Shown: positions 22,049-43,791 of the stretch, piece after piece | Layout: the number at the start of each line of letters is the position of its first letter | How positions within the stretch are numbered: position 1 is the stretch's first letter | IMG/VR virus record: IMGVR_UViG_3300042197_002147 | Coordinates: 1 to 64,000 of that record | Direction: 5' to 3' (one strand) | Origin: a virus | DNA: 64,000 bases | The notes under the pieces: model-generated | The model's database searches: none | The model's input: the letters and a program-made list of their open reading frames with translations, nothing else | Told to the model about the DNA's origin: nothing | Translations under genes and position numbers: made by a program

Positions 22049-23218
22049 ATGACTTGTTCAAGTAGCAGTAATATAAGATCAACACAAACACTAGTATCCA
22101 TCACGCAAGGTGGTTCTAGACTAACAGCTGTTATTCCAGATGGATCGTACAGTTCAGGTATAACTGGGGGGGATGTAATTTATTGGAATCCTCTTGGTGG
22201 GGGTGGTGGGTTGTATGAAAAGTCAAATGCCAGCACTTCTGCTAGTGCTGAAGTTTTTGGAGTAGTAGAAAATGTAACTCAAACTGGTGTAAGTTCATAT
22301 TCCTTAAATGTTGTTTTATACGGATCAATAATATTACCTTCGTCTGCAATTTATACAATAGCAGGAGCAACAGGTGGTGCTGGTGGTGCAGATGTATATT
22401 TCTTAAGCGGTATAAGCGCAGGAAAAATACAAGTAGAAGCACCATCAACAATTGGTCATGTAATAAAACCAGTTTATCAAGTTGCTCCACACGGATCATA
22501 TACTGGAACAGTTGTAAATTACATTGGCTATAGATTAGGCGGCGAAATAGAAGCATTTACAGATCCTGCCGAAAATTTGACTGGAACTGTTTCCTTTTTG
22601 GTAAACTTAGCAGATACAGTAAATCCAGTAATACCAGCAAATTATGTTGATGCAAGAATATCACATGAATTATTAGTCTCGATTCATCCAAGTTTCTATA
22701 ACAAGTATGGAAAGCAGTTTGGTTTTGTTGAAGAAATTACATTAAAACCGGGATATTTGGCAGATGCATCTAAAATAGGAAAAGTTACTGTTACAAGAAC
22801 ATCCGATTCAACTCTTTCTTCTGGAAGTATTTTAGCAACAGCAAACGATAACAAATATTACATCAGATGGCCAGGAACGGCATCAACAACAACAAGTTCG
22901 CAAAAACTTAAAATTTCTGACACATTTTTGGAAGTTCAATCTTCTAGCGTATATTCAGTGTTTACTCCAAAAATAAATACAATAGCAAACTTTAGTATTT
23001 TTGATGTCAATGGAAATAATATAAGTGCAGATTTAGTTCCAATAATGAAATTAAATCCAGAAGAATTATCAGTAAACATACCACAAAATGTAGTCATTTC
23101 AGAAGCAACAATACAAACTATAAAATTAGGAACTGAGTCTAGTAATGACAATGTTGGTACAGTATTGACTGATTTGGAAAACAGATTATCTGCCGTAGAA
23201 GCAAGATTGTTAATGTAA
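22049..23218 (+). CDS. Putative fibre/structural protein
   Basis: 389 aa; AEV.GVV...YFLS....G.I....P...G.V.KP segment paralogous to part of the preceding gene; C-terminal coiled coil LTDLENRLSAVEARL. Confidence 0.6.
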   Translation: MTCSSSSNIRSTQTLVSITQGGSRLTAVIPDGSYSSGITGGDVIYWNPLGGGGGLYEKSNASTSASAEVFGVVENVTQTGVSSYSLNVVLYGSIILPSSAIYTIAGATGGAGGADVYFLSGISAGKIQVEAPSTIGHVIKPVYQVAPHGSYTGTVVNYIGYRLGGEIEAFTDPAENLTGTVSFLVNLADTVNPVIPANYVDARISHELLVSIHPSFYNKYGKQFGFVEEITLKPGYLADASKIGKVTVTRTSDSTLSSGSILATANDNKYYIRWPGTASTTTSSQKLKISDTFLEVQSSSVYSVFTPKINTIANFSIFDVNGNNISADLVPIMKLNPEELSVNIPQNVVISEATIQTIKLGTESSNDNVGTVLTDLENRLSAVEARLLM

Positions 23219-23219
23219 A

Positions 23220-26084
23220 ATGGCAAAATTTATATACGGAAGTAGCAATATACCGATAAACAATGTACCTACAACGATAGGTATAACTGGTCCTACTGGA
23301 CCTGCTGGTATAACTGGCCCAGAGGGTCCGGTTGGACCAGTCAGACCCGGTCCAACCGGAGACACTGGTCCTTCTCTCGTAAATATAGTAAAAAATTCTC
23401 AAAACTTTTTTGAACATTATTTTGATAATGGACAAATAGTAAATAGTCCTTCTAAAATAGTAGGACCCAATGGACCTTCCTATCTCAATATTCAGGGTGT
23501 AAGTTTAGATACATTCAATGTATTGACAGCAGATCTTGATAATTATTCATATAAAAAATTAACAGAAACATTTACAATTGATGCAGTCGGTTTTAGAAAC
23601 ATAACAACAAATAGTTCACCATATATCACAATAACAAGTGAAGATGATGAAACAATAGAAATTAATTATAATTTAATAGGTCTATCTTTTCTCGGAATAA
23701 GTGGTGGTTCCGATGGTCAATTGTTAAAAAATACAATAGGAAACTTTCAATCTGGTGAAACAGGAACAAATTACAACGAACAATTAAGAACTATCGACGC
23801 CAGAACTAGTAATATAGTTCAAAGATTTTTAAAGGTCAATTTCTTGCAGGCTGCATCTGGTGCTGTTCGATATTGGAATATAGACCCATCATTAGGTAAT
23901 TCTTTTTACTTAAGTCCCGTTGATTTGTCAACTGGTACAATATACTTTTTAGTCCTTAAAAAACCAGATAATGTTAATAGTTCAAAATCTATTACTGTTA
24001 TAGTTCCATCGGCCGGAATGACTCCAACAAAACAAATTCAATATGTCACTGTAAATGAACTCGGAGAAATAACAGATTGGTCTTTGAGGAATGTAAGTCC
24101 TATTTCTTGGTCATTGAATCAAGCACCATGTATTCCAAAAACTGGTTTTACTATTTTAAATTTTACTTCTATTGGTGGTGTTTGGTATGGAAATGTAATT
24201 GGTCATGCACAAACTAGTGTTTCTTCTGTTGCAACTTCTTTTGATAATTCAAATAGTACAGATAGATCAAACATATACCACTGTAATCCTACATCAATAT
24301 ATCAACAAGGTTCTTCAGATGAACCTGCACTGTTATTCGGAACAAATACAGGAATAACTGCTGGCCTTTGCTGCGATTCAACATGCACACCATCTGAAAA
24401 TTTGAATATTTTCTGTAATGGTTATTTTATACCAGGCGTTACATCTGGAGGTTCTACATTTTGTGATGCATTGGGTGCTTGTTGCTTGAAAAGTTCAAAT
24501 GGAAAAGTTTTACCTTGTCAGAAGTTAAAATACTGTGAGTGTGCTTCGATAGCAGAAAACACAAATTTAGAATTTTCTTGGAATAAATTTAAAAATGCAA
24601 AAGAATCTTGCTTAGATTTTGATTGTGCAAACGCATTTGAAGACATTGGTGCATGTTGCGATGGTTCTGGAAATTGTTCAGAAATAACATATACAGATTG
24701 TGTTGCAAGACATGGATTTTTTCAAGGATATGGTATCAAATGTGTTACTTCTAAAAATATTCAAATATGCTATGGTGGTACGGGTGGATGCTGTGATTCT
24801 GGCATAACTTGCGAAAACAATGTTTATGGACCAAATTGCATATCATCAAAGAAAACATTCTTGGGAGATGGAACAAATTGCATTGATTATGATTGTCAAA
24901 TAAAAAGCATTCCTTGTTATGATATTATACCAAACGAAATTTTAAAATTTGGTGATTTGTATAGCAATGCCATGGTTTGTGGTATATTCAATCCAAATAA
25001 AGCAGAGTGTTTTGGTAATACAATTTTTGGTTCAAATCAATCACTAACATTTGATGATTTAGTAGAATCTGAAGCAGAAGTAAACTGTATGGATTATGCT
25101 TCAGTTTATGATTATGTTGGATATGGTTTTACTGGTCAAAATGCCTGCGATAATAACTCGGATTCTTATATTATACTTCTTTCTTTACATCCAGTCACTG
25201 TGGATGAAAACAATAATATAGTTTCTTATAGTGGAAATAGCAAAAATTATACAGACTTTACATGGAGTCACGGTGGAAATTACTGGGGTCCTTTGTTGAA
25301 TCCATTTAGTGGTGTTATTTCAGAGATGTCTGATGATAAATTAGTTTATAAAGAGGGTTATATTTACGATTACACCAACGAAAATACAAAAATTAATTTA
25401 ACTATAAACTCATTTATTGATTGTGGATTTGTAAGAAAATCTGATAATCCACAAAGTTGGTTACAAAGCAATCCAAATAGTTCGTTCAATGGAAAATGGT
25501 TTAGAAATTATGGTTTAATTAACTCTATTAGAATGGTCAATGCCGAATATGCATATTACTTAGGACTCACCGGAGAGAATTTTACAACATCGACTTATAC
25601 ACCAACTCAAAGTAGTTCTCAAATGACTGCTGGGCGTGCAATTTCCCTGTTCAATAAAAATTATGAAGAAAATAATGATTTTATTTCTGATTGGTATTTA
25701 CCAAGTTATGATGAATTGGCATATTTAGCAAAAAATTGCTTAATGGATGCGGAAAATAATATTAATTCAAAACTTCTACAAAATGGCGGCACACCTTTAG
25801 ATGGATGGCATTGGTCTTCAACTGGAACATTTAATTCACAAGAAAATGAATATATTTTAAATCATCCAAGTGGTTTAACACATGGAACAATGGCATGGGC
25901 AATACAATTTGATTCGGATGGAAATTCAGAAAAATTCAAGACGAAAAAAGCAAATAGAACAGAAAATAAATATAAAGTAAGGCCAATTAAATTGATAAGA
26001 TGTGATAAAAAATATCATGCAAACAATTCATCCAATAATAAATATTGGAGATTGATAAACTTGAACGAGAACGCAATAACATGA
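23220..26084 (+). CDS. Collagen-like, cysteine-repeat fibre protein with a DUF1566/Lcl-like C-terminus
   Basis: Gly-X-Y N-terminus; GLCC, GACC, GACC, GGCC repeats; DWYLPSYDEL...WHWSST...AWAIQF...VRPIK. Confidence 0.7.
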   Translation: MAKFIYGSSNIPINNVPTTIGITGPTGPAGITGPEGPVGPVRPGPTGDTGPSLVNIVKNSQNFFEHYFDNGQIVNSPSKIVGPNGPSYLNIQGVSLDTFNVLTADLDNYSYKKLTETFTIDAVGFRNITTNSSPYITITSEDDETIEINYNLIGLSFLGISGGSDGQLLKNTIGNFQSGETGTNYNEQLRTIDARTSNIVQRFLKVNFLQAASGAVRYWNIDPSLGNSFYLSPVDLSTGTIYFLVLKKPDNVNSSKSITVIVPSAGMTPTKQIQYVTVNELGEITDWSLRNVSPISWSLNQAPCIPKTGFTILNFTSIGGVWYGNVIGHAQTSVSSVATSFDNSNSTDRSNIYHCNPTSIYQQGSSDEPALLFGTNTGITAGLCCDSTCTPSENLNIFCNGYFIPGVTSGGSTFCDALGACCLKSSNGKVLPCQKLKYCECASIAENTNLEFSWNKFKNAKESCLDFDCANAFEDIGACCDGSGNCSEITYTDCVARHGFFQGYGIKCVTSKNIQICYGGTGGCCDSGITCENNVYGPNCISSKKTFLGDGTNCIDYDCQIKSIPCYDIIPNEILKFGDLYSNAMVCGIFNPNKAECFGNTIFGSNQSLTFDDLVESEAEVNCMDYASVYDYVGYGFTGQNACDNNSDSYIILLSLHPVTVDENNNIVSYSGNSKNYTDFTWSHGGNYWGPLLNPFSGVISEMSDDKLVYKEGYIYDYTNENTKINLTINSFIDCGFVRKSDNPQSWLQSNPNSSFNGKWFRNYGLINSIRMVNAEYAYYLGLTGENFTTSTYTPTQSSSQMTAGRAISLFNKNYEENNDFISDWYLPSYDELAYLAKNCLMDAENNINSKLLQNGGTPLDGWHWSSTGTFNSQENEYILNHPSGLTHGTMAWAIQFDSDGNSEKFKTKKANRTENKYKVRPIKLIRCDKKYHANNSSNNKYWRLINLNENAIT

Positions 26085-29000
26085 TTCAAAATTACGGTAG
26101 TTCAAATATTATTTTAGGTTACTCTGGCGTTACTGGATTTACTGGTCCAACAGGTCCTACTGGGCCCACCGGACCTACTGGTGCGACTGGAGCAACCGGA
26201 TATGGTATTACTGGATCTACCGGATTTGGCATTACTGGCGGAACATATTCCTCGCCAGGATCTGTTATTTTTTATATCGGAAATACTGGTAGCGTTACAA
26301 TAGGAATTACTGGTCCAGTTGGTTCTAATTTTAACGATACATTTGTTGTTTTGATAGGACCGACTCTTTCTTCTTCCGGTTCTACTCTGTTTTCTCCATT
26401 CTACACAACAGATCCGTTAGAAAAAATTACAAACAAAATAGAAATTGGTTATGGAGAAGATTTAAATGTAAAAAGTTTAGATTTTGTTTCTCTAAATGGT
26501 GAAATATTATCAGTAACAGAAAATACAAATCAAATAATTGTAGCTGGTAAAACATTTAGTACATTTCCAATGGGAAACACTGGTGAACTTCTTTATATCA
26601 AAAATGGAGTCGCAGTTGGTGCAAGAGAAACTAAATGGGATAATGCCACAAATCAATTAATTGTTTCCTTTGATACTTTTAGACAATCAATAGAAGGAAA
26701 CACCGGAAACATTTGGACTCCAATTTCTGGTGTTTGCTTTAATACTACTTCACTATTTACACAATTAGTGACATCTGGTGGGTTTACTTATGGTAAATCA
26801 CAGATAATAGAAAATTGGGATGATAGTAATTCTTTCAAATCAAATAATGGAATTTATAATATTACAAATTCCACATTCAATATACAGCAAAAGTATTTCT
26901 TCGGGCAAAGCGGAGGAACAGATTTACAATTATTGCCCAGAACAATTACATTTACAAAAGGATCAAACCAATTTCTTCCCCAAATTTTTACTGAAGACAA
27001 ACTAGGATCTTGTTGTTTTTGCAGAAGTGGTTCTTCGGATAAAGAATGCTTAGATTATGTTTCCAGAGATTATTGCATAAGCATCGGTGGTCAGTTTGGA
27101 GTAAAGGCATGCGTCGAGCGTCTTGGAACATCCGACTGTTTTCCAGAAGGTGCTTGTTGTGTAAACGGAAAGTGCGTAAATTCAGATGTAGATGCATGTG
27201 TAAAATATGGTGGAGTATTTTTTCCGGGAGAAATTTGTTCTACAACAATTATTGAAGGAGAACCAGCATTTGTATGTCCGAATGCTTGTTCTTTTGGAAT
27301 AGGTTCATGTTGCTATAAAGGAAACTGTTTAGATTTAAACGAATCAGAGTGCAAAGCAATACCAAATACTGTCTTTGTTCGTGGAAAAAGATGTAACGAA
27401 TTGCCAAAAGTTACGGGAGAACCACCAGATACAACAGAATATGATTATTGTTGCAGAGTTTCTAGTTTTTATGGTCCTTGCTGCACATATACTTCTGGAA
27501 ATGGTGATTCAAATTCAACATGCATTCCAAACCTGTCTCCGAAAGATTGCATAGACAGAGATGGAATTTTTATGGGTTTCGGGAAATCGTGTGATGAAAT
27601 CAATTGCTGCGGAGTTTCATATTCTCCAGAATATTATAGAGAATCTTCTACTTGCAGAAAAACATCAAACGATCCTTGCAGTCCTACCGGAACTAGAATT
27701 GGTGGTGGTTATTTAGTTGCAATAATTGGTTCTCCAAATTCATGCACAACTTTCTCACAACCACAATTTGGAAAAGGAGAACCGCTTGAGTGTCTTTGTA
27801 ATCCTAGAGGTGAGGTGTTCGGGGAAGGAAGAGAAACATGGAAGTTTAAAAATTGCCTAGATTATTCTGCAAATACTGCATATATCGACTACTATGATCG
27901 ACCTTTGTTTGTAAGAACTCACCCAAGAATTCCAACAATAAAAATGTATGCAAATAAGTGCTTACTGAAGGCAGGAGCACCATACATAACCCAACTAAAT
28001 GACGGAGCATATAGTCTTCAGGATGGAAGTCAAAAAAATACAAATGGTGGAAGTCTTCCAGAATTTACTTGGCCAGACGCAAAATTCTTTGAGGGTTCTG
28101 AAACTTATGATCAAACAATTTTTCCATCATTTGATAATCAAACTTGCAATATAATGGTAGAAGCAATTGGTTTGGGTACACCACCATCAACTCTTTACAA
28201 ATATCTTGCAGAAAAATTCTATGGCGCAAATGCAATTCATATAGTATGGGCTCTTATAATGGCGCCAAGAGATTTGACTGTAAATTATACTGGCGTTACT
28301 TATGATTATATGAAATGGTCGAACATGGTTGAATCTAGAGTTGGACCTGGTTCAGAATCAAATTCTCCTAATTTCTTCTTAGAACCAATAGCAACATCAC
28401 CAGTAGATGGATTGTTAAATACTAGACTTCACGATGCCCATTCAAAATCAAAACCAGAATTCTGGTTTAGGGATTATGACAATGATGGAATAGATTCTAG
28501 AGCATATGACAGATTTGTTACCCAAAATATAAATCAATGGGATTTGGTCGAAAACGCAGATGAACAAAAAATAAAAACAGATAAACAAGAATTTGAATAT
28601 TATTATTCCCAACTATGGGAAAAATTAAACCCAGAAAATACTGCAATAAGACAGATATCAAAGGCAAATGAAACTAATTTTTATGGATATGATGATTGGT
28701 ATATTCCAAGTGCTCTAGAGATGTATTATATTTCAAACTATGTTGATGAATTAAACACATCTATTTTGACAAATGGTGATGATGATCATCAGATTTTACA
28801 ATATACAACTTATCCAAACACTTCAGGACCAACCCCAGGCGCGCCCGGACAAACTCGTAGCGTATACTGGACATCAACTAGTGTTTGTAGAATAAATGCA
28901 TGGAATAAAAATAACCACACAATAAAAGATTTTTATCAAATAGAATCAACAAATACATCTTTAAATGTTAAATCTAGATATAAATCTGGTGAATTTGGTC

Positions 29001-29308
29001 TAAGCGATTCTGATGCTTTTGATTTGTCACACCAGATATGCAATGGTCAAAAAATGTTAGGTGTAGATTTATCTAGAACTGGAATGGGAAGATGGGGGTT
29101 CACCCGCGCCTACGACAGACAAACACAATGTAGAGTAAGACCTGTTAGAAGAATACCAATTGTAGTAGGTTGCTCTAATTTGGAAATAATAAATGCCTAT
29201 GAAGATTATGATTTTAAGGAATGTCCTTCTTGTTTTGATTATGATAATTGTAATTCCGATATAAATAACAACGGTAACAACGGACCAACTCCGGGTACTA
29301 TGAGTTAA
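26081..29308 (+). CDS. Collagen-like, cysteine-repeat fibre protein with a DUF1566/Lcl-like C-terminus
   Basis: Start at ATG 26081 (ATGA overlap with previous stop); GPTGPTGATG; GSCC, GACC, GSCC, GPCC; GYDDWYIPSALE...YWTSTS...VRPVRR. Confidence 0.7.
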   Translation: MIQNYGSSNIILGYSGVTGFTGPTGPTGPTGPTGATGATGYGITGSTGFGITGGTYSSPGSVIFYIGNTGSVTIGITGPVGSNFNDTFVVLIGPTLSSSGSTLFSPFYTTDPLEKITNKIEIGYGEDLNVKSLDFVSLNGEILSVTENTNQIIVAGKTFSTFPMGNTGELLYIKNGVAVGARETKWDNATNQLIVSFDTFRQSIEGNTGNIWTPISGVCFNTTSLFTQLVTSGGFTYGKSQIIENWDDSNSFKSNNGIYNITNSTFNIQQKYFFGQSGGTDLQLLPRTITFTKGSNQFLPQIFTEDKLGSCCFCRSGSSDKECLDYVSRDYCISIGGQFGVKACVERLGTSDCFPEGACCVNGKCVNSDVDACVKYGGVFFPGEICSTTIIEGEPAFVCPNACSFGIGSCCYKGNCLDLNESECKAIPNTVFVRGKRCNELPKVTGEPPDTTEYDYCCRVSSFYGPCCTYTSGNGDSNSTCIPNLSPKDCIDRDGIFMGFGKSCDEINCCGVSYSPEYYRESSTCRKTSNDPCSPTGTRIGGGYLVAIIGSPNSCTTFSQPQFGKGEPLECLCNPRGEVFGEGRETWKFKNCLDYSANTAYIDYYDRPLFVRTHPRIPTIKMYANKCLLKAGAPYITQLNDGAYSLQDGSQKNTNGGSLPEFTWPDAKFFEGSETYDQTIFPSFDNQTCNIMVEAIGLGTPPSTLYKYLAEKFYGANAIHIVWALIMAPRDLTVNYTGVTYDYMKWSNMVESRVGPGSESNSPNFFLEPIATSPVDGLLNTRLHDAHSKSKPEFWFRDYDNDGIDSRAYDRFVTQNINQWDLVENADEQKIKTDKQEFEYYYSQLWEKLNPENTAIRQISKANETNFYGYDDWYIPSALEMYYISNYVDELNTSILTNGDDDHQILQYTTYPNTSGPTPGAPGQTRSVYWTSTSVCRINAWNKNNHTIKDFYQIESTNTSLNVKSRYKSGEFGLSDSDAFDLSHQICNGQKMLGVDLSRTGMGRWGFTRAYDRQTQCRVRPVRRIPIVVGCSNLEIINAYEDYDFKECPSCFDYDNCNSDINNNGNNGPTPGTMS

Positions 29309-29309
29309 A

Positions 29310-32618: not shown

Positions 32619-32631
32619 ATAATTTTATAAC

Positions 32632-35600: not shown

Positions 35601-38600
35601 TTCTAGTAATTTGTCAATTATAAGAGTCAGTAACACTTCCCCTTCTATTTTTTCTATAACATCAAATATAGTAATACCACCAGAAACCGCATTTTCTGTA
35701 ACAGGAAGTGGTATAACAGATCCAGATCCTGCTGATGTATTACAATTTAAATGGGTTTTATCTAAATCGGATTCTTCTATTATAGAGGATACTGGTTGGC
35801 AAACACTATCTGGTTCTAGTGTGACATATACAAAATCTACTGGATTACCCGGAGCACAGACGAATCAAGTTTATTTTGTAGATCTTTTTGTAAAAGATCC
35901 AAACGAAAATGTAGCAACAAAAAGATGTACTGTAACCGTACAGAATAGTTTACCTATAATTGGTGTAACTTATGATACAGACATAAGTTCTCCTTTTGTT
36001 AAATTTATAAATGGAACTGATGCCAATCTTGGTCTTTTAGAAAAATTAATTTTAGACACCACAATTACTGCTTCTGATCCAGATGGTGGTTCTTTGACAT
36101 ACAATACAACAGTTTCTGGTGGTCCATTTTCGATAAATGGTCAAACTACTTCAAAACCAAAAATAGAACTATTGCAAAAGGGAAATTATTTAATATTCCA
36201 CACAGTAACTGATAATGAAGGTGGAACCGACTTCATTCAAAGTAATGTAGAAATTTTAGAAAATGAAAGACCTTCTATAAATTTTGATTCAACACAATCT
36301 TCTATTTTGTTTCCTTGCTCTGGTCAAAATTTAGTTGATGTAATTGCAACAGTTTCTGATACAGAAACGCCATTTTCTAATCTCACAAATGCTACAATTG
36401 TTCCGATTAGTTATCCATCAACACCACCAGAATTGATAGGTACTGTTCTAACAGACAATGGTTCAAGTGGTGACATAACAACTAGATTTAAAGTATTCAA
36501 CACAGGAACATATACATTTAAAGCATCTATAACCGAACCGGGAATAGATGACACTATTTCTCAAACAGTAGAAGCATCAACTACTATAACAGTATCTGCT
36601 GATCCTAACTTCAATCCTTCAATTCCACCCATATCCCCGATTACTGTTTCGAATCCAATTTCAAATTTCTTATTTACAATCAACGCTTTCGATGTCAACG
36701 GAATAAATCCATTATTATCCAATGTCAGACTTGAAACTGGTGCTGATCCGTATTTTAGAATTAATTCAACCACCACAACACAGCAGGGCGACAATACTAG
36801 TATACAATTTGTATTAGATATATCTGTTCTTTCCACCACTGTACCTAATGGTTTATATTCTCTTATTATAAAAATTATAGACAATTGTGGAAGATCTTTC
36901 GAACAAACATCTGGATTTGTTAATGTGCAAAATACAGCACCATCCGTAACCATAACAAACCCAACTCAGACCGTTGTTTCTTCAACACTTCCAGTAACAT
37001 TAAATTTGAGTGCAAGTGGTTATGATCCAGATGGTTCAACACTAATTTATAATTGGACATTGACTGGCCCAAGTACAACATACAATTTTTCAGCAAATAA
37101 TTCATCATCATCAAATAACACAATTTTAACTGGATTGAATAAAGGTGGCCAGCATCAAGTTTCTGTTACGGTAACAGATAGTTCTGGTTCTACATCTGTT
37201 CCGGCAGCAGTTACATTGAATGTGACGGATCCAAATCCTACAGCAAATGCAGGAAACGATTTATCAATAACATATCCAGATTTAACAACATTTCCTAAAA
37301 CTTTTTCATTAGATGGAACAGGAAGCACGGATCAATCTGGCGGTTCTATAAGTTTATATCAGTGGAGTATTATTTCCCAAAGCGGTTCTACAATTGAATT
37401 TGTTGGGTCAAATCAAATTTCTACACCAACGGTTAAGGTTAATGGTTTTGGAACATATACTTTATCTTTAGTAGTTACTGATAATAATTCAAATGTTTCC
37501 AGTCCAGATACTGTTACTTTAACTTTGTTAAGAGACATTGCACCAACAGTAAATTTGACCGCATCATCAACAAACATTACACTTCCAACAAATTCTATTA
37601 ATTTACAAATTAATACATCAACAGATGTAACTTCGGCAACAATAACAGAGGTGACTTCTTTTGGTGCTACAATAGTTTCACCCGTAAAACTAAATTCAAC
37701 AACTTGGCAAGCAACTATTAATAATTTGACAACAAATAGTAATGGTTCTTCTAGAAACTATACATTCAAGGCAACTGTAGATGATGGTGTAAATCCACCA
37801 GTTGATTCAAATCCACAAACAATAACAATAAACAATCAAATACCAACTGCCGAAATATTTATTCCATCTAGTACTTCTGGTGTTAATATGACAAGTAACT
37901 ACACATTTGGTATTACGGCATTTGCCGTTGACCCAGATGGTGGTTCTCTGGTAAATCCTGAATTTCTTATAACTACGGTTCCTCCAACATATACTGGAAG
38001 TGTTTTATTTGGTGCAATTTCCCAAAATGTAAGTACAAGCGGAACAACATATTCGGCACAATGCACGATAGCTGCACCAATAAAAATTGGAAATTATGGT
38101 TTTGCATTCATGATAACTGACAATGAAGGACAAACAGTTCAGTCTAATCCAAAAGAATTAATATTCACAAATCAAAGTCCTACAATAACAGCATCAAAAC
38201 TGGCACACATTATACCATTTCCAACAGTTACACAGTTCAATACATCTGTATATGGAATTTCGGTCACGGATCAAGATAATAATATAACATCAAGTAGATG
38301 GAGAATGAAAAGTGTTCCTTCTGGTGCAAATTCTGGATACTCCAATCCCTTATCATCGACTTCTTCATATTCTGATATTTTAATTCCATTTATTGATTCG
38401 CCGGCTCCGGTGGGTGGTACATATACTCTTGAATTACAAATTCAAGATTTGGGAGGAAGTGTAGTTAGTCAAGATTTTACTGTTAAAAGAAATCAAGCCC
38501 CAAATGTTAGTATTACAAATCCAGATCCAAACAATTCTGTAAATATAACATTACCTTCTACTCTTAATTTAACCGCAGTTGCAAATGATCCTGATGGATT

Positions 38601-41600
38601 TATTTCTAGTTATATCTGGACCGCATCTGATCCAAGCAGAGTAACTTTTAGTAATGCCTCTTCTTTAAACACAACAGCAACATTTACTCCAATTGGTTCT
38701 ACATATTCGATTTCAATTGGATTTTCAGCAACAGACAATAATGGAAGACCTACATCAGCAAGTCCAAGTTTAACAGTAAATGTTTCCCCAAATCCAGCAC
38801 CAGTAATAACATCATTTTCTGCTTCTCCAACTAATCCACTTATTTCCGGTGCTAATCAAAGTGCATCCACCACACTTACAGTAAATGCAACAGATAACGA
38901 AGGAATTACATACTTCTTTAAACAAGTACCAGAAGCAGGAACACCAACAGTAAGTATAACACAAAATCCATTACAAAATCAAGCAGTTGTTTCTGGTATG
39001 ACACTTCCATTTTCGAATAGCACAATAGCTTCTTCTAAAGTTTATAAATTTCAAGCAGAAGTCACTGACGCCTCTGGAAACAAAATAACTAGTAACACAT
39101 TAAATGTTACAGCAGAAAGCAGTCAACCAACAATATCTAATGTAAATAGTAATTTGGGTTCGATTACATTTACAGGGTCATCACAATCAATAAACATAAA
39201 TCCTACACCTGGCGCAACAGCAATAGATCCAGATGGTGGAATTTTAAATTATTTATGGACAAACCCAACTAAACCCGCCGGAGCAGGAATCGTCACAATA
39301 AATAATAGCAATACATTCACACCAACTGCAACAAACTTTACTCAGCCAGGATCTTATGGTTTTAATTTACTTGTAACAGATAACGAGGGAACACAAAATA
39401 ATCAAACAGTATCCTTAACTTTAACTAATGCAGCGGCTCCAACATTTGGTACTCTTCCTGTGAGCGGCGTAGTACAAAACCCTGTTTTAAGTGTTTCAAG
39501 AACTTGCACAATTTCAAATGCAAGTGCAACTCCATCTTCAACAAATGCCGGACCCGTTAATGTAACAGCAGGGGTTACGCAAATTTCAGGTCAAACTGCA
39601 CCAACAGTATCAGTAAGTAATGGAACGAATATACAGTCTAGTGCTACTGTCTCTATAAACATTAATACAGCAACGATGACTCCCGGTATTGATTTTACTA
39701 TTTCAGTAACGGCAACTTCTACAACAAATGCATCGCTTTCAGCAACAACAGCATTTACTATAAGAAAAAATGCATTACCTATTTTACCACCACTCTCTGG
39801 AAGCGGTGGTAATGTAAATACTAAATTAAATTTTACAATATCTGGTGTTGGATTTGCATCTGATCCCGATGTAGGTGGATCAATTACAAGATATGATTGG
39901 ACAACAAATCCTCCGACCAGTTCAATTTTTCCAAATAATAATGCTGGTGCGACATTTGTTGGTATAACATTTAATGCAACAGGAACATATACCGTTTCTT
40001 GCCGAGCTGTTGACATTTTGAGTGAAGGTACTACTGCTAATTTAACTGGTATTGCTATAGCTGCACCACCAGCAGATCCTTGTACATTAAAGAATTATGC
40101 ACGAAGTAGTGGATATTTGTATAATATTATCGTGCCAAATGAAGCAATACGAGGCGCATCAAAAGGACCAGGAGCTCCTCCAGCTCCACCCAATACATGT
40201 CCGCCGCCCCCTTCTAGTCCTATTCAAAGTTTGTTTAATTCGGGAAGTGCATTTGCTTCGAACTGGGATTATTTGGGCGCTTTTAGTGCTGGTGAGTTAG
40301 GATGGAAAATAAATCCAGCAAAACCAACGGGCGATGATAATACAGGAACAAAATATCCTTATTCTAATTTTATTTTAAGAAATGGAAATTATTTTGATCA
40401 TTCTGCTACTGCTTTTAGTTTGGATTATTTTGACAGTTGGAAATCAGCATCAACTGCACTGATTCCAGTTGCTGCCATTAGAAGAGTTACTAGACCATTT
40501 GATTTGTCTTTTGCATATTTAAGCGGTATTTATCCAAATTTACAAAATAGAACTCAATATGAAAATAGATTTATACAATTTATAAATTCAAATGAATTCG
40601 ATTTCACATCAAATGCAGAACAAGACAAAACTGTAAGACTTGGTGATGGAATTCCATTTATTTTCAAATGCTCCTGTTGGGACGCAAATGAGGAATTGTC
40701 CTATACAAATTGGTATGATTATACTTCACAAACTGGTTCACAAGAATTTAATTTAACATGTCCATCAGGAACTACAAGAAAACCAAGATCTTTGATTGTT
40801 GTTAGATTTAAACAAGCAACAGCGATGTCAGCAGTAACAAATGGTCCTTCAGGAAATGCAACAAAATGTCATAATTTTACTAATGTTGGTGGCGGCGAAG
40901 GCGCACAAGTAGTCACAACTGATATAACTGCATATTATGTTTCAAGAAATGAAGCACAATCGGCTACAACGGACACATGTAAAATAGGTGTAGGTAAATA
41001 TGCACTTATAAGATATGAAATAAATTACCCAAAAGACTCAACAGGTGATGGTTCGTTAACAAAAACAATTTGTAGCGATTCATCGACAAATGTGGGTACA
41101 TGCTCTGGTGCTAGTAATTTGTTTATTCCGGTTAGCACTCTTTCTTTCACAACTTATCAAAGTGATCCAGATATTGCAAATCAGCTTGGAAATTTTCCAA
41201 AAGTAGTTAATATTCCAGAAATTTGCACTCCGTGTACGACATCAGGTCCAGCGCAAACAGATGCGAATAGAACAGCTAAAAGAAAATACTCAGATATAAC
41301 TTGGACAACTTCTAGCATGGCATGGGCAACAACTTCAGCTCCTTTAAGTGTAACATCAAATCGTGCGTTTGTTCCACCCGAATTTATATGTGTTGCGGAT
41401 TGTGAAAATTCATCGTATTTATCTGGAGGAACATGTATAACTACCATGACCGGTCCTTGTGCAGCAGCTGCATTTACTGGAGAAGAAACACCAATAAATG
41501 ATTCAAATGGTAATGAAAATCTCATTTGGATTAAAATATATAGTAGTGAGGATCCAACACTATATGAATGTGTTCCTGTTCTATATGATTTAGAAATTTT

Positions 41601-41628
41601 AAAACAATACGAACTTTGCGAGGAATAA
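32632..41628 (+). CDS. Giant 2998 aa fibre/adhesin: collagen, cysteine repeats and a long Ig/PKD (cadherin-like) repeat chain
   Basis: N-terminal about 500 aa paralogous to 29310..32618; recurring N..P.....A.DPDGG...Y.W...G.Y...L.VTD..G units; PTANAGND PKD signature. Confidence 0.8.
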   Translation: MYSSSINTLKMMGPDGPTGSVGPTGSTGPTGPTGATGSTGAVGPYIVSVDATTSRAIFTLSNGLTFGITGSFSGNTAYSSTEQATSIGSGTSILGTATPGQLNIKGISAIGSLVVSTTSNNLSIDTIYKSVVGNLDALGLSADTLMYLKSPELASSTRIKLDGTGDLDFQNQFYLNDAAFIKYVGPIKKNQYVGITGAIENITNGTTGGIYIDLENGGFYQLNTPIGIAGFTGTFNKNEIISATLVFTSDDIWKFPENVYFESGENYFTCGKSIVNISTFDGGENWYAVVSQRGLDIESFASCKPSIGKGSCCYVKYPQNTVNCIDYVSRDECDLLGGSFNPLLSCSQSCGLTFGLCCSNGNCIENVSPDECAFFGGVFYSALSCNTYTNNPNGKNYDEPIENGRLCYNPCETEKLVCCKNGTCLGSNYSRIQCELILGGKSVTGGDCSTVNCCENNIGVGACCACKAKGLLCYDNLTPQECLSAEYDGVFMGQNELCDNVNCTCVGGSNEQVGETFPTFDLIVVQNPVAPNQRGHVRIVNVEDAEGGPFQYKVTLNRIIDLLPETIYTTEYFDITNPINTDYFTEPLEHLTDEGIPTIYEVVISVRDTDNNISTKSKFISVNDVIPEIVSISVVPSSPIIYEEPETYPINVGSTVLVTARDPDGGSVFYEFSIEPSENEVSFIEMQSNMIAVTLVVKETTNNNTTVTVKCVVTDEESQSVTVMVPIVFQKDVAPEYDIVIDPPGEGTDLPDWVYNGCLNASTYPAAGRIGTTLRPRIKIPANQGNIKLYYGMAMYREEGPGQYYCCMNCQQIVMPNGEQDIISGINDITIDLPEVAGNTAGLYILSTILRQQPYNEFNTISRAKAVRITNEGPQIIEITPDIVINMDPSEPQLQVPTAFIPNGIFKEVQFGVTAADINNNLVGALFFPRLIANGNVLSYNYTYTSGYVRPVSNVTKIGNYFTQRWRFFYESNYQIDHQVNDEVLYTDIDSSNLSIIRVSNTSPSIFSITSNIVIPPETAFSVTGSGITDPDPADVLQFKWVLSKSDSSIIEDTGWQTLSGSSVTYTKSTGLPGAQTNQVYFVDLFVKDPNENVATKRCTVTVQNSLPIIGVTYDTDISSPFVKFINGTDANLGLLEKLILDTTITASDPDGGSLTYNTTVSGGPFSINGQTTSKPKIELLQKGNYLIFHTVTDNEGGTDFIQSNVEILENERPSINFDSTQSSILFPCSGQNLVDVIATVSDTETPFSNLTNATIVPISYPSTPPELIGTVLTDNGSSGDITTRFKVFNTGTYTFKASITEPGIDDTISQTVEASTTITVSADPNFNPSIPPISPITVSNPISNFLFTINAFDVNGINPLLSNVRLETGADPYFRINSTTTTQQGDNTSIQFVLDISVLSTTVPNGLYSLIIKIIDNCGRSFEQTSGFVNVQNTAPSVTITNPTQTVVSSTLPVTLNLSASGYDPDGSTLIYNWTLTGPSTTYNFSANNSSSSNNTILTGLNKGGQHQVSVTVTDSSGSTSVPAAVTLNVTDPNPTANAGNDLSITYPDLTTFPKTFSLDGTGSTDQSGGSISLYQWSIISQSGSTIEFVGSNQISTPTVKVNGFGTYTLSLVVTDNNSNVSSPDTVTLTLLRDIAPTVNLTASSTNITLPTNSINLQINTSTDVTSATITEVTSFGATIVSPVKLNSTTWQATINNLTTNSNGSSRNYTFKATVDDGVNPPVDSNPQTITINNQIPTAEIFIPSSTSGVNMTSNYTFGITAFAVDPDGGSLVNPEFLITTVPPTYTGSVLFGAISQNVSTSGTTYSAQCTIAAPIKIGNYGFAFMITDNEGQTVQSNPKELIFTNQSPTITASKLAHIIPFPTVTQFNTSVYGISVTDQDNNITSSRWRMKSVPSGANSGYSNPLSSTSSYSDILIPFIDSPAPVGGTYTLELQIQDLGGSVVSQDFTVKRNQAPNVSITNPDPNNSVNITLPSTLNLTAVANDPDGFISSYIWTASDPSRVTFSNASSLNTTATFTPIGSTYSISIGFSATDNNGRPTSASPSLTVNVSPNPAPVITSFSASPTNPLISGANQSASTTLTVNATDNEGITYFFKQVPEAGTPTVSITQNPLQNQAVVSGMTLPFSNSTIASSKVYKFQAEVTDASGNKITSNTLNVTAESSQPTISNVNSNLGSITFTGSSQSININPTPGATAIDPDGGILNYLWTNPTKPAGAGIVTINNSNTFTPTATNFTQPGSYGFNLLVTDNEGTQNNQTVSLTLTNAAAPTFGTLPVSGVVQNPVLSVSRTCTISNASATPSSTNAGPVNVTAGVTQISGQTAPTVSVSNGTNIQSSATVSININTATMTPGIDFTISVTATSTTNASLSATTAFTIRKNALPILPPLSGSGGNVNTKLNFTISGVGFASDPDVGGSITRYDWTTNPPTSSIFPNNNAGATFVGITFNATGTYTVSCRAVDILSEGTTANLTGIAIAAPPADPCTLKNYARSSGYLYNIIVPNEAIRGASKGPGAPPAPPNTCPPPPSSPIQSLFNSGSAFASNWDYLGAFSAGELGWKINPAKPTGDDNTGTKYPYSNFILRNGNYFDHSATAFSLDYFDSWKSASTALIPVAAIRRVTRPFDLSFAYLSGIYPNLQNRTQYENRFIQFINSNEFDFTSNAEQDKTVRLGDGIPFIFKCSCWDANEELSYTNWYDYTSQTGSQEFNLTCPSGTTRKPRSLIVVRFKQATAMSAVTNGPSGNATKCHNFTNVGGGEGAQVVTTDITAYYVSRNEAQSATTDTCKIGVGKYALIRYEINYPKDSTGDGSLTKTICSDSSTNVGTCSGASNLFIPVSTLSFTTYQSDPDIANQLGNFPKVVNIPEICTPCTTSGPAQTDANRTAKRKYSDITWTTSSMAWATTSAPLSVTSNRAFVPPEFICVADCENSSYLSGGTCITTMTGPCAAAAFTGEETPINDSNGNENLIWIKIYSSEDPTLYECVPVLYDLEILKQYELCEE
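32667..34022 (+). repeat. Duplicated fibre N-terminal cassette, copy 2
   Basis: Near-identical to 29345-30700 with many synonymous differences. Confidence 0.92.
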
Positions 41629-43206
41629 ATGGCAATACAGTTTAGAACAAGAACAAAAAGTGCAATAAACTATTCCACGGAACTGAAATCTATTGGAGTG
41701 TGTTGTGGTATAGATGGATCAAAAACATCTAAAACATTTTTAGAATGTTTTCAGTCTGGTGGAAACTTTCAATACGGAAACATAAATGAAGTTGATTGTA
41801 TAAGTCCGGGTGCAACTGGTTGTTGTTGCTCATGTTCAAATGAAACATTAGAAGGTAGTTTATTTAATGGTGTTATTTATCCAGATTTATTAACGCAATG
41901 TGGAGGAATAATAAACAATAATAGATTAGGTTTAGTGAATGGAACTTCAAAGTGTGAATGTGAAAGATTGGGTGGCGTTTGGAATCAGGGACCCTGTCCA
42001 ACAAATGGTCAAAGTGCGACATTAGATCCAGCCTACGACCCAAATAGTATTTTAATTGGTAATTCAACAGCAGACAAATATTGTGGAAAATTATTTCCAG
42101 TTGGTGATTTATTATCAAATGAAGCATGTCTATTTGATGTAAGAGTTCCAAGATCTTGTTGCTATATGGATAGAGATGATAACAATGTTCCCACTAAAGT
42201 TATTTGTGAAAATGTTTGCAAGAGTTCAGATTGCATGGGTTATACTGCATCAAATCAACCAGCAATATTTTCCAAGAAAAAATTATGCAATGCTGATTTA
42301 TTAGGTAATGGCACGGCAGATTGCACATCTTCTAGTTTTTTGAGTTATTATTCTACTGGAACTGCTTTATTTGATGATTTTTCACATGGACCTTGTTTCA
42401 GATTAAAGAAAACAAATAACACATATTCATATGATTGTGAATTGACATCAAAAGAATTATGTGAAGAGTACTGGACTGAATTATTAGATGATTCGAAGGT
42501 ATGCAACCACAATTATGCACCACAAGTTCCAACTAAAACTGGAAGTAGAATTATAGAACCAGAAACAATGTCAGAATATTCTTTTAATTTGCTTGGTCTT
42601 AATATTGGTGCAACTTATAAAGGTGGAATTTATATGGGAATCTATGAACCGGGTTCTCCGATTACACCAACTGCTTCTGATATTTTTGGTGCAGAACAAT
42701 TAACACAAAAAACAGGAACACTGTTAAAATCAAATGCTTCCGGACCTGGAGAAAAGAAAAATAAAAAATGGGCAATAATAGTAGAACCCTCAATTTATTT
42801 TACAACATTTTTAGATGTGGGGGAACAACTACAAACAAGTCAAAGAAATTTATCAAAATATGATGGATTTTATAATTTTTATGGGGACAATAGAACATTT
42901 AACGGAATAAAAACAAAATTAACAAATACAATATGCGGTAAAAATAGAAAAGGATTTGCAGATTTTTATGTTCCCTCTTTGAAAGAGTTGCAATTTTTTG
43001 CAAAACAATATCAGGTTTATGTTTCTGGTGTCACTAATTATATAATACCAAGAGGCGCATTTATGACATCATCAATGTATAACGAAAAATTATTATATAG
43101 TCAGTATTTGACTCTATCTGATTCGTATAACTATGGTAGAGTAATTTTGTCTGCTCCGACTACAAATCTTTCTATATTGTTTTTTAGAAGAATTTTATTG
43201 ACATAA
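41629..43206 (+). CDS. Cysteine-repeat protein with a DUF1566/Lcl-like C-terminus and no collagen
   Basis: GVCC, GCCC, RSCC repeats, CERLGGVW; IGATYKGGIYMG...DG..N...GFADFYVPSLKEL...MTSS...FRRI. Confidence 0.62.
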   Translation: MAIQFRTRTKSAINYSTELKSIGVCCGIDGSKTSKTFLECFQSGGNFQYGNINEVDCISPGATGCCCSCSNETLEGSLFNGVIYPDLLTQCGGIINNNRLGLVNGTSKCECERLGGVWNQGPCPTNGQSATLDPAYDPNSILIGNSTADKYCGKLFPVGDLLSNEACLFDVRVPRSCCYMDRDDNNVPTKVICENVCKSSDCMGYTASNQPAIFSKKKLCNADLLGNGTADCTSSSFLSYYSTGTALFDDFSHGPCFRLKKTNNTYSYDCELTSKELCEEYWTELLDDSKVCNHNYAPQVPTKTGSRIIEPETMSEYSFNLLGLNIGATYKGGIYMGIYEPGSPITPTASDIFGAEQLTQKTGTLLKSNASGPGEKKNKKWAIIVEPSIYFTTFLDVGEQLQTSQRNLSKYDGFYNFYGDNRTFNGIKTKLTNTICGKNRKGFADFYVPSLKELQFFAKQYQVYVSGVTNYIIPRGAFMTSSMYNEKLLYSQYLTLSDSYNYGRVILSAPTTNLSILFFRRILLT

Positions 43207-43759: not shown

Positions 43760-43791
43760 AAAATCTCCTTATAAATAAGTAAGGAGATTTT
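43760..43791 (+). promoter_or_regulatory. Late promoter TATAAATA within a 12 bp hairpin that sequesters the gp13 RBS
   Basis: AAAATCTCCTTA (43760-43771) pairs perfectly with TAAGGAGATTTT (43780-43791); TATAAATA at 43770-43777. Confidence 0.82.

What the first reader, a model, noticed from the sequence alone, without database searches (positions are those of the whole stretch)
22049..43206. Modular collagen/cysteine-repeat fibre system with a shared N-terminal motif and different tips
Seen in sequence: six consecutive, tightly coupled genes between the baseplate and neck modules. Five start with a related motif (CSSSSNI, YGSSNI, YGSSNI, YNSVIN, YSSSIN). Four continue with a short Gly-X-Y collagen segment (GPTGATG) and carry four repeats each of the type GxCC...C...C...GG.F.G...C. 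The tips differ: DUF1566/Lcl-like lectin fold (23220, 26081, 41629), polyproline plus Gly/Cys-rich (29310), or a long Ig/PKD chain (32632). Established knowledge: T4 long tail fibres (gp34-37) have none of this architecture. Inference: this is a combinatorial, probably branched adhesin apparatus whose subunits dock through the common N-terminus, trimerise through collagen, and are stiffened by disulfide- or metal-locked repeats. It is the best candidate here for an undescribed system.
Basis: partly seen in the sequence, partly recalled or inferred. Interest (0 to 1): 0.85.

Follow-up and report, generated by a model that had tools for sequence, protein, structure and literature searches.

The report
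Collagen-headed, cysteine-repeat phage fibre gene module
A widespread group of uncultured T4-like water phages carries a conserved block of fibre genes whose proteins share a short start motif, a short collagen neck and a disulfide-type cysteine repeat found in no domain catalogue; this is a new variant of the familiar modular phage adhesin, not a new kind of machine.

Summary
Six tightly packed genes (22049-43206) lie between the baseplate-wedge genes and gp13/14/15 of a T4-like myovirus. This is where T4 has gp9-12 and wac, not its long tail fibres.

In 53 related viral contigs the same ordered module recurs: F0, F1, COL-A, COL-B, COL-C, F6, an 8-Cys protein, then gp13.

- **Start motif.** An N-terminal [IY]GSSx[IFV] or CSxSSNI motif is found in 112 of 131 fibre genes, against 12 of 354 other genes.
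- **Collagen.** The run is 5-12 Gly-X-Y triplets.
- **Cys repeat.** Four repeats are significant in P0003, P0004 and P0005. P0002 has one significant repeat; P0006 has none.
- **Repeat family.** It is absent from Pfam, NCBIfam and PDB. It matches 1,603 protein clusters, many of them secreted Planctomycetota-type proteins with up to 21 tandem copies.
- **Disulfides.** Even Cys counts and paired gain and loss of Cys favour disulfides over metal sites.
- **Tips.** They are Lcl_C-like (weak for P0006), polyproline plus Gly/Cys-rich, or a PKD chain.
- **Cultured phages.** No homologue was found.

Docking through the N-terminus and branching remain untested. Other first-stage notes on this same DNA had already flagged the shared ends, the cysteine repeat and the Planctomycetota link.

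Verdict: a new variant of a known kind, of moderate interest.

The parts
19780..22038 (+). F0: 752-aa conserved gene that always precedes the array (N-terminal TFYDWY.KEN motif); weak tail-fibre-like C-terminal half
   Evidence: phrog_4492 tail fiber, E 8e-18. tblastn finds 23% identity to tail fibre proteins of Stenotrophomonas and Ralstonia myoviruses. Present in 25+ related loci.
22049..23218 (+). F1 (P0001): 389 aa. It starts with M-T-C-S-S-S-S-N-I and has two beta domains and a C-terminal helix (369-386). It has no collagen and only one Cys.
   Evidence: Alignment A4 has C3, S6, S7, N8 and I9 invariant. AF2 pLDDT is 74, with residues 1-22 disordered. Residues 20-165 resemble beta-tulip capsid cement proteins, VIA Z 8.7 and 8.5, which is borderline. 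No Pfam, PHROG, PDB or cultured-phage match.
23220..26084 (+). COL-A (P0002): 954 aa. FIYGSSNI motif at nt 23232-23252, 7 GXY triplets at nt 23280-23342, degenerate CC-repeat block at nt 24357-24899, Lcl_C-like region at nt 25623-25916.
   Evidence: In more distant relatives the tip is replaced and lacks the DWYxPS motif.
26081..29308 (+). COL-B (P0003): 1075 aa from Met13. YGSSNI motif, 10 GXY triplets at nt 26117-26206, about 250 aa of beta-rich shoulder, four CC repeats at nt 27005-27601, Lcl_C-like domain at nt 28637-28918.
   Evidence: About 80 full-length metagenomic orthologues at 31-72% identity. Alignment A1. Four HMM-significant repeats. Lcl_C found in 31 of 31 orthologues.
29310..32618 (+). 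COL-C copy 1 (P0004): 1102 aa. MYNSVIN start, 11 GXY triplets at nt 29346-29444, four CC repeats at nt 30240-30845, polyproline array at nt 30870-31211, Gly/Cys/Pro-rich region at nt 31212-32504, conserved about 37-aa C-terminal tail at nt 32505-32615.
32632..41628 (+). COL-C copy 2 (P0005): 2998 aa. MYSSSIN start, 11 GXY triplets at nt 32668-32766, four CC repeats at nt 33565-34140, Ig/PKD-like chain at about nt 34189-40041, Cys-bearing C-terminal region, conserved tail at nt 41515-41625.
   Evidence: 79% identity to P0004 over the first 516 aa. PF22352 105.5 bits in 5 stretches, plus PF00801. Tail alignment A6.
41629..43206 (+). F6 (P0006): 525 aa. Conserved M.IQFRSR start, with neither the GSSxI motif nor collagen. 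Cys-rich N-terminal half with three divergent CC-like units, and a probable DUF1566/Lcl_C-like C-terminal third.
   Evidence: Alignment A3 of 25 orthologues. hhalign match of 92% over 28 columns to the Lcl_C core of COL-B. Pfam matches 1 of 25 members. ESM-Atlas look-alikes mostly carry Lcl_C.
43226..43753 (+). C8: 175-aa, 8-Cys protein (MGCNC..., FCGGCGCGD), always between F6 and gp13. Probably belongs to the module.
   Evidence: 62% mean identity across 13 diverged loci. No family found.

Best explanation
This is the conserved host-recognition fibre module of a large, uncultured clade of T4-like aquatic myoviruses. It sits in the genome slot where T4 has gp9-12 and wac.

Three paralogous families of collagen-headed proteins make up its core: COL-A, COL-B and COL-C. 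COL-C is duplicated in this phage. They most likely form homotrimeric fibres built on one plan:
1. A short N-terminal peptide ([IY]GSSxI), inferred to fix the fibre to a common type of socket on the virion.
2. A 5-12 triplet collagen triple helix that acts as a short trimeric neck.
3. A beta-rich shoulder of about 250 aa.
4. Four small beta-hairpin/helix/strand units, each locked by about three disulfides, forming a rigid rod.
5. An exchangeable distal part that binds the host surface.

The distal part differs by family.
- In COL-B it is an Lcl_C (C-type-lectin-like) head. In COL-A it is the same head in close relatives only.
- In COL-C it is a hypervariable cassette. Here that is polyproline plus a Gly/Cys-rich domain in one copy and a PKD chain in the other. 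Both are closed by a conserved, disulfide-stapled tail of about 30 aa.

F1 (beta-tulip-like with a coiled coil), F6 (Cys-rich with a DUF1566-like end) and the 8-Cys protein are conserved accessory parts.

Shown: gene order, conservation, motif, repeat family, predicted unit fold and Cys covariation. Inferred: trimer state, disulfide formation after lysis, docking role of the N-terminus, site of attachment and the receptor.
For: - Context: gp6 and gp25 wedge genes lie upstream; gp13, gp14, gp15, terminase, sheath, tube, portal and MCP lie downstream.
- The same ordered module occurs in 53 IMG/VR loci and in JGI/NCBI contigs with independent gene calls.
- N-terminal motif: 112 of 131 fibre genes against 12 of 354 others. 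It is kept across paralogue families that share 26% identity or less.
- The collagen Gly positions are invariant. The only PDB sequence hit is the BclA collagen region.
- CC block: AF2 pLDDT 79.8 from 79 sequences; each unit is a hairpin, a short helix and a strand.
- 28 Cys per block in 62 of 79 sequences, and an even count in 89%. C182 and C205 are both present in 73 sequences, both absent in 6, and never single.
- An extra Cys pair in the COL-C tail is gained and lost together: 13 both, 9 neither, 2 single.
- Cellular homologues carry signal peptides and tandem arrays, so they are extracytoplasmic.
- Lcl_C is found in all 31 COL-B orthologues. Legionella Lcl is a trimeric lollipop adhesin, with a collagen stalk and a DUF1566 head that binds sulfated glycans (PMC11162425).
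- PKD domains are present in P0005.
- The COL-C middle varies from about 350 to about 2500 aa between fixed ends.
Against: - There is no virion proteomics or imaging, and no cultured relative carries any of these genes.
- Lcl_C scores are below the Pfam gathering threshold in the window's own proteins.
- Collagen runs this short are unlikely to be stable alone.
- The fibres would fold in a reducing cytoplasm, and no thiol oxidase, DsbA or thioredoxin was found in the record. The record is about 70% complete, and the Erv1 control was uninformative.
- Sequences within a family are related, so the motif and Cys-covariation counts are not independent events.
- The attachment site is unknown. F1 resembles capsid cement proteins, and the array abuts the neck genes.
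Confidence: 0.7

Rival explanations
1. Some or all of these proteins are not baseplate fibres. They would be neck/collar whiskers or capsid fibres, a fibritin-like or head-fibre-like 'hairy' decoration that still serves adsorption or sensing.
For: The array ends directly at gp13/gp14, the position of wac in T4 (T4 gene order is from established knowledge). F1 residues 20-165 resemble beta-tulip capsid cement proteins and, more weakly, the phi29 head-fibre base (VIA Z 8.7, 8.5 and 5.0). A separate fibre-like cluster at 82-91 kb could supply the true tail fibres.
Against: The array begins directly after the wedge genes and the tail-fibre-like F0. The Z values are borderline by the tool's own calibration. 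Lectin-like and PKD tips fit receptor binding at either site, so they do not discriminate.
Confidence: 0.2
2. The cysteine repeats are metal-binding modules (Zn or Fe), not disulfide knots. That would let them fold in the reducing cytoplasm.
For: The fibres are made in the cytoplasm, and no phage-encoded oxidase was found. T4 fibre tips do bind Zn and Fe (established knowledge). The neighbouring 8-Cys protein has a zinc-ribbon-like CGGCGC motif.
Against: Cys counts are even, and Cys pairs are gained and lost strictly together. No His or Asp ligands are conserved in the unit consensus. The bacterial homologues are signal-peptide proteins in tandem arrays. The nearest, weak structural match is the disulfide-rich membrane-proximal region of ADAM17 (Z 4.5, rmsd 2.0 over 43 residues).
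Confidence: 0.12
3. The shared N-terminal motif is only inherited from the common ancestor of the COL paralogues, or serves something other than docking. Examples would be recognition by a chaperone or modifying enzyme, or a signal at translation initiation.
For: COL-A, COL-B and COL-C are paralogues, so sharing by descent is expected. The motif is short and Ser-rich. In the F1 model it is disordered.
Against: It is far better conserved than the flanking sequence across lineages that have diverged to about 30% identity. It also occurs, invariant, in F1, which is not detectably related to the COL proteins. Conserved N-terminal anchors with variable tips are the rule in phage receptor-binding proteins (established knowledge).
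Confidence: 0.2
4. The cysteine repeat was taken from the host, so the phages infect Planctomycetota (Phycisphaerae).
For: In cellular genomes the repeat is concentrated in Phycisphaerae and other Planctomycetota, with some Eisenbacteria and Zixibacteria.
Against: The phage genome is 36% GC. Its MCP is closest (57%) to Pelagibacter and cyanobacterial myophages. The DNA pattern searched was derived from the bacterial consensus, so the taxon list is biased. The phage repeats are diverged, and sharing a domain does not identify a host.
Confidence: 0.1

Closest known systems
Legionella Lcl and the wider 'collagen-like repeat + DUF1566/Lcl_C' adhesin family (PMC11162425)
   Same: An N-terminal anchor element, a collagen-like trimeric stalk and a C-terminal Lcl_C domain, as in COL-B and in close-relative COL-A. 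Lcl is an extracellular glycan-binding lollipop.
   Different: The phage proteins have only 5-12 triplets. They insert a 250-aa shoulder and four Cys repeats between stalk and head. They use a GSSxI peptide instead of an amphipathic helix. They score below the Pfam threshold, and their profile did not hit the Lcl-CTD chain in PDB.
Collagen-like phage and spore fibres (Bacillus BclA; collagen-like tail fibre PHROGs 6320/8745/5073; PRD1 P5 spike, from memory)
   Same: GPT-type Gly-X-Y runs next to a short N-terminal targeting sequence and a globular C-terminal domain.
   Different: The matches are confined to the collagen run. Nothing else in these proteins is shared.
Multi-RBP and branched receptor-binding systems with conserved N-terminal anchor peptides (CBA120, G7C, Klebsiella phiK64-1 types; established knowledge, not tested here)
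   Same: Several adjacent RBP genes share a short conserved N-terminus and have divergent distal domains.
   Different: No T4gp10-like adaptor domain was detected in any gene of the module. The stalks are collagen and Cys repeats, not beta-helix tailspikes. Branching is not shown.
Host recognition cluster of pelagimyophages and cyanomyophages (PMC7029224)
   Same: A hypervariable fibre island in the structural region just before the neck genes of marine T4-like phages. Collagen triple repeats are noted among its proteins.
   Different: That island is non-syntenic, about 34-45 kb long and full of glycosyltransferases. This one is a compact, strictly ordered 7-8 gene module. Its proteins have no tblastn match in 50,697 cultured phage records.
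T4 gp9-gp12, wac and gp34-37
   Same: The genome position matches the gp9-12/wac slot. Both are presumed to be trimeric fibres with N-terminal attachment.
   Different: No sequence or family similarity was found.

Membership tests
Collagen triple-helix repeat proteins (PF01391) | Uninterrupted Gly-X-Y repeats long enough to score as collagen | tested here: inconclusive
   There are 7-11 perfect triplets with invariant Gly in orthologues. Pfam Collagen scores only 18 bits against a cut-off of 27.2 in P0005. The BclA collagen region is hit at 2e-8 by the profile.
Lcl family (collagen + Lcl_C/DUF1566, PF07603) | Lcl_C domain above the Pfam gathering score | tested here: not met
   21.8 and 24 bits against a cut-off of 34.9 for P0002 and P0003. 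Yet 31 of 31 COL-B orthologues match at E <= 1e-3, the best at 1.4e-7. They are distant relatives of the domain, not certified members.
Lcl family (collagen + Lcl_C/DUF1566, PF07603) | Collagen-like region N-terminal to the Lcl_C domain, in a trimeric lollipop | tested here: inconclusive
   The order collagen ... Lcl_C is present. The trimer state and shape cannot be tested with these tools.
Lcl_C in F6 (P0006) | Recognisable Lcl_C domain | tested here: inconclusive
   Pfam matches 1 of 25 members at E 0.0046. hhalign gives 92% over 28 columns. The Atlas structure and feature look-alikes mostly carry Lcl_C.
PKD / K319L-like PKD domains | Pfam match above threshold | tested here: met
   PF22352 at 105.5 bits (cut-off 27) in 5 stretches, and PF00801 at 38 bits, both in P0005.
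T4 tail fibre and baseplate fibre families (gp9-12, gp34-37, wac) | Sequence-family match to any of them | tested here: not met
   No Pfam or PHROG hit of that kind for the six proteins.
Branched RBP systems with T4gp10-like adaptors | Several RBPs with a shared short N-terminal anchor | tested here: met
   Motif statistics.
Branched RBP systems with T4gp10-like adaptors | A T4gp10-like docking domain in one of the proteins, and physical branching | tested here: inconclusive
   No such domain was found by Pfam or PHROGs in F0, F1 or the neighbours. A distant fold was not searched for, and branching is not testable here.
GxCC cysteine repeat (no catalogued family) | A ~35-45 aa unit G-x-C-C-x(2-10)-C-x(5-8)-C-x(3-5)-G-G-x-[FY]-x-G-x(2-4)-C, in tandem | tested here: met
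   Four significant units each in P0003, P0004 and P0005, one in P0002 and none in P0006. The profile hits 1,603 clusters at E <= 1e-3. No Pfam or NCBIfam family covers it.
Beta-tulip capsid decoration/cement proteins (for F1) | Fold match clearly above background | tested here: inconclusive
   VIA Z 8.7 (rmsd 3.4 over 117 residues) and 8.5, with about 20 of the top 23 rows being cement or triplex proteins. The tool's own typical best Z is 7-8. Foldseek finds nothing at E <= 1e-3.

The most novel reading that the evidence does not exclude
Two linked readings are not excluded.

(1) The GxCC unit is an uncatalogued extracellular disulfide-knot domain family shared by Planctomycetota secretomes and phage fibres. 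On this reading the fibres carry 26-30 Cys per chain in the repeat block alone and gain rigidity or infectivity only after oxidation outside the cell, which would be a redox maturation step.

(2) COL-C is a cassette fibre. Its fixed ~30-aa disulfide-stapled tail docks F6, so any middle segment can be swapped in while the same lectin-like tip protein is retained.

The complex test of the COL-C tail against F6 gave weak support. The score was 0.34 against a best control of 0.00. That mark was reached by 58 of 80 solved complexes and by 2 of 110 mismatched pairs. At a score of 0.60 or under, only 7 of those solved complexes and both of those mismatches reached it. The runs agree in at least 27% of contacts, and the partner's pLDDT is at least 53. 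The tool rates such a weak pass as more often wrong than right.
Probability: 0.25. Interest if true: 0.7.

Novelty: new variant of a known kind. Interest (0 to 1): 0.55.

Why it matters
The module is the likely host-recognition apparatus of a large clade of T4-like phages known only from metagenomes. COL-B alone has about 80 orthologue clusters, and 53 viral contigs carry the module.

- It gives a clear, alignable template for reading host-range determinants in these phages: fixed anchor, neck and rod, with a swappable tip.
- It defines a cysteine-repeat domain with more than 1,600 sequence clusters that no domain database or solved structure covers.
- It raises a concrete biochemical question: how does a cytoplasmically assembled virion part with dozens of cysteines fold, and when does it oxidise?
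- The COL-C design, with two fixed ends and a hypervariable middle, is a natural scaffold for studying how fibre cassettes are exchanged.

Tried and rejected
- **Cultured phages.** tblastn of P0003, P0006 and P0001, and megablast of 19100-44000, found no match in 50,697 cultured phage records.
- **PDB by sequence.** Only the BclA collagen region matched. P0001 and P0006 matched nothing.
- **Foldseek against PDB.** Neither the CC block nor P0001 had a match at E <= 1e-3.
- **VIA wide search, CC block.** The best match was the ADAM17 membrane-proximal region, at only Z 4.5. That is too weak to name a fold.
- **NCBIfam.** Nothing matched the six proteins or the bacterial tandem-repeat proteins.
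- **Disulfide enzymes.** Erv1/ALR, DsbA and thioredoxin families were not found in the phage record. The record is about 70% complete, and the Erv1 search also rang in no control genome, so it is uninformative.
- **Taxon survey.** A DNA pattern replaced it, and that pattern is biased towards the bacterial consensus.
- **Late promoter.** TATAAATA occurs 9 times against 9.25 expected by chance, so no promoter claim is made.
- **ESM Atlas.** The feature search of the P0004 Gly/Cys tip gave no usable hit.
- **Literature.** Searches for the repeat and for this fibre type found nothing specific.
- **Rejected reading.** That the array is T4-long-tail-fibre-like was rejected: there is no family similarity and the genome slot is the wrong one.
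Full report
**Where the finding sits**

The window is the first 64 kb of a 156.7-kb linear IMG/VR virus record, estimated about 70% complete, with 36% GC and 11 tRNA genes. PHROG scans identify a T4-type structural region.
- Upstream lie tube-cap and wedge genes, a 1693-aa hub-like protein, gp25-like and gp6-like genes.
- Downstream lie gp13, gp14, gp15, small and large terminase, sheath, tube, portal and MCP.
- The MCP is at most 57% identical to that of any cultured phage. The nearest are Pelagibacter phage Mosig and cyanomyophages.

The six genes therefore occupy the slot where T4 has gp9-12 and wac.

A separate fibre-like cluster lies at 82-91 kb of the same genome. It includes a 581-aa collagen-rich protein and a 927-aa tail-fibre-like protein.

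**The observation**

Six + strand ORFs lie at 22049, 23220, 26081 (the longest ORF starts at a TTG at 26045), 29310, 32632 and 41629. The gaps between them run from -4 to +19 nt.

Five of them begin with a Ser-rich motif: CSSSSNI, YGSSNI, YGSSNI, YNSVIN and YSSSIN. Four continue with 7-11 Gly-X-Y triplets.

P0004 and P0005 are 79% identical over their first 516 residues. P0003 is about 26% identical to both over the same span, and P0002 is more distant. These four proteins are therefore paralogues.

**Conservation elsewhere**

P0003 has about 80 full-length orthologue clusters at 31-72% identity. All are metagenomic and all are unnamed.

A profile-guided scan of IMG/VR returned 53 loci. In them the same order recurs:
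1. F0, about 760 aa.
2. F1, about 380 aa.
3. COL-A, 900-1600 aa.
4. COL-B, about 1025 aa.
5. COL-C, 845-1770 aa in most; two copies in this phage and in its close relative L006.
6. F6, about 500 aa.
7. An 8-Cys protein of about 185 aa.
8. gp13, gp14, gp15 and the terminase genes.

Independent JGI/NCBI gene calls show the same layout.

**The N-terminal motif**

Nearly all COL-A and COL-B proteins start with [IY]GSSx[IFVY]. COL-C starts with that motif or with the variant M-[SYA]-[SNK]-S-x-I.

F1 has no collagen and no detectable similarity to the COL proteins, yet it has C3, S6, S7, N8 and I9 invariant.

A loose pattern is found in the first 16 residues of 112 of 131 non-redundant fibre genes, against 12 of 354 other ORFs. 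Most of those 12 are unclassified F1 or F0 homologues.

These sequences are related to one another, so the counts are not independent. Even so, the motif is much better kept than the sequence around it.

**The collagen neck**

The Gly positions are invariant in 31 orthologues. Length is 5-12 triplets, and most COL-C proteins (27 of 43 non-redundant ones) have 11 triplets, usually at residues 13-45.

The only PDB sequence hit of the family profile is the collagen region of BclA. Runs this short probably need the neighbouring domains to stay trimeric. That is an inference.

**The cysteine repeat**

A unit HMM built from COL-B orthologues has the consensus KEGACCVNGKCIDNVTPEECASIGGVFSGGGSCSE.
- It finds four significant units each in P0003, P0004 and P0005.
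- It finds one in P0002.
- It finds none in P0006. The CC-like units of P0006 are visible by eye only.

AlphaFold2 on a 79-sequence alignment of the four-unit block gives pLDDT 79.8. Each unit is a beta-hairpin, a short helix and a strand. Inter-unit geometry is uncertain, with pTM 0.43.

No solved structure matches by Foldseek. An exhaustive VIA search gives only Z 4.5, to the disulfide-rich membrane-proximal region of ADAM17.

An exhaustive HMMER search of 1.84 billion cluster representatives finds 1,603 clusters at E <= 1e-3 and 513 at E <= 1e-10.
- Some have the phage architecture, with one four-unit block near residues 280-520.
- Others are proteins with signal peptides and up to 21 tandem units of the form GACCLPDGSC...C...GG.F.G.G..C.
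- Neither Pfam nor NCBIfam covers these proteins; only occasional dockerin domains are found.
- Structural neighbours in the ESM Atlas are almost all Planctomycetota proteins.
- A back-translated GACCLPDG[ST]C pattern hits 120 or more genome loci. Most are Phycisphaerae or other Planctomycetota, with some Eisenbacteria and Zixibacteria. That pattern is biased towards the bacterial consensus.

**Disulfide or metal?**

Several lines favour disulfides.
- The block has 28 Cys in 62 of 79 sequences, and an even number in 89%.
- The one variable Cys pair (positions 182 and 205 of the block) is present together in 73 sequences, absent together in 6 and never single.
- In the COL-C tail an extra Cys pair is likewise gained and lost together: 13 both, 9 neither, 2 single.
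- The cellular homologues are exported proteins.

The open problem is that phage fibres fold in a reducing cytoplasm. No DsbA or thioredoxin was found in the incomplete record, and the Erv1 search was uninformative. Oxidation after lysis is the simplest inference, but it is untested.

**The tips**

- **COL-B.** Lcl_C matches all 31 orthologues at E <= 1e-3, although below the Pfam threshold.
- **COL-A.** It has the Lcl_C core motif only in the closer relatives. In other lineages the tip is longer and different.
- **Legionella Lcl.** It is a trimeric lollipop with a collagen stalk and a C-type-lectin-like DUF1566 head that binds sulfated glycans (PMC11162425). It is the nearest characterised analogue.
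- **P0004.** It carries about 114 residues of PPPG, PPPSG and PPPT arrays, which are tandem DNA repeats at 30893-31207. A Gly/Cys/Pro-rich region with no detectable relatives follows.
- **P0005.** It carries a long PKD/Ig chain.
- **COL-C family.** Across about 40 members the first ~500 and last ~30 residues are conserved, while the middle is unrelated and runs from about 350 to about 2500 aa.
- **F6.** A DUF1566-like C-terminus is supported only weakly.

**Accessory proteins**

The F1 model (pLDDT 74) has a disordered N-terminal motif, two beta domains and a C-terminal helix. Its first domain resembles beta-tulip capsid cement proteins at a borderline Z of 8.7. This keeps a neck or head location open.

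The 8-Cys protein is the best conserved gene of the module, at 62% mean identity, and has a CGGCGC motif.

**A test of one specific idea**

The idea was that the conserved COL-C tail docks F6. The complex predictor gave weak support.
- The score was 0.34 against a best control of 0.00.
- That mark was reached by 58 of 80 solved complexes and by 2 of 110 mismatched pairs.
- At a score of 0.60 or under, only 7 of those solved complexes and both of those mismatches reached it.
- The runs agree in at least 27% of contacts, and the partner's pLDDT is at least 53.

The tool rates such a pass as more often wrong than right, so this is a lead only.

**Comparison and verdict**

The general design is established for phage receptor-binding proteins and for bacterial collagen-like adhesins: a conserved N-terminal anchor, a trimeric stalk, exchangeable tips and a collagen-plus-lectin lollipop. 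Pelagimyophages and cyanomyophages are already known to have a hypervariable host-recognition cluster before the neck genes (PMC7029224).

Four things are new here:
- This particular strictly ordered module.
- Its lack of any homologue in cultured phages.
- The uncatalogued cysteine-repeat domain that it shares with Planctomycetota-type secreted proteins.
- The fixed-ends, variable-middle design of COL-C.

Docking through the N-terminus, branching, presence in virions and the host all remain untested. I rate it a new variant of a known kind, with moderate interest.

Other first-stage notes on this same stretch had already flagged the shared ends of P0004 and P0005, the GACC repeat with its Planctomycetota link, the polyproline rod and the PKD giant. 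I checked the first two directly.

Noticed in passing
window 43226-43753: A 175-aa protein that starts MGCNC and has 8 Cys, with the invariant motifs SCFGN, FCGGCGCGD and CPLxMPGF. It always lies between F6 and gp13 and is far better conserved (62% mean identity) than the fibres. No family matched. It could be a zinc-ribbon-like chaperone or a neck component.
   Followed up: partly
G000 82066-90894 (L180), outside the window: A second fibre-like cluster: a 581-aa protein with long collagen runs (phrog_6320, E 8.5e-38), an 816-aa ORF, a 927-aa tail-fibre-like protein (phrog_16641) and a 570-aa protein. These may be the long-tail-fibre equivalents.
   Followed up: partly
window 32505-32615 and 41515-41625: P0004 and P0005 share a ~37-aa C-terminal tail (VKIY.N....EC[IV]P....[YF]ELC). 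It is conserved in most of about 40 COL-C relatives, whatever the middle of the protein is. An extra Cys pair in the tail is gained and lost together.
   Followed up: yes
L058-L137 (genome contigs): Tandem GACCLPDG[ST]C repeats are common in MAGs of Phycisphaerae and other Planctomycetota, and also occur in Eisenbacteria and Zixibacteria. The domain has no Pfam or NCBIfam entry.
   Followed up: partly
window 29260-29267 and 43770-43777: T4-late-promoter-like TATAAATA lies just upstream of the P0004 and gp13 starts. The motif count in the window equals the chance expectation (9 against 9.25).
   Followed up: partly
window 22049-23218: The first domain of F1 looks like the beta-tulip fold of capsid cement or decoration proteins (borderline Z 8.7). 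This is odd for a gene placed right after the baseplate genes.
   Followed up: partly
window 30870-31211: A GC-rich patch (44.5% GC against about 33%) encodes stepwise-changing PPPG, PPPSG and PPPT arrays made of 12-, 15- and 48-nt tandem repeats. The length of this spacer may vary by slippage.
   Followed up: no
L010 17292-23255: In one relative the F6 homologue is a 1987-aa protein with 215 Cys, so F6 can be greatly extended with cysteine-rich sequence.
   Followed up: no
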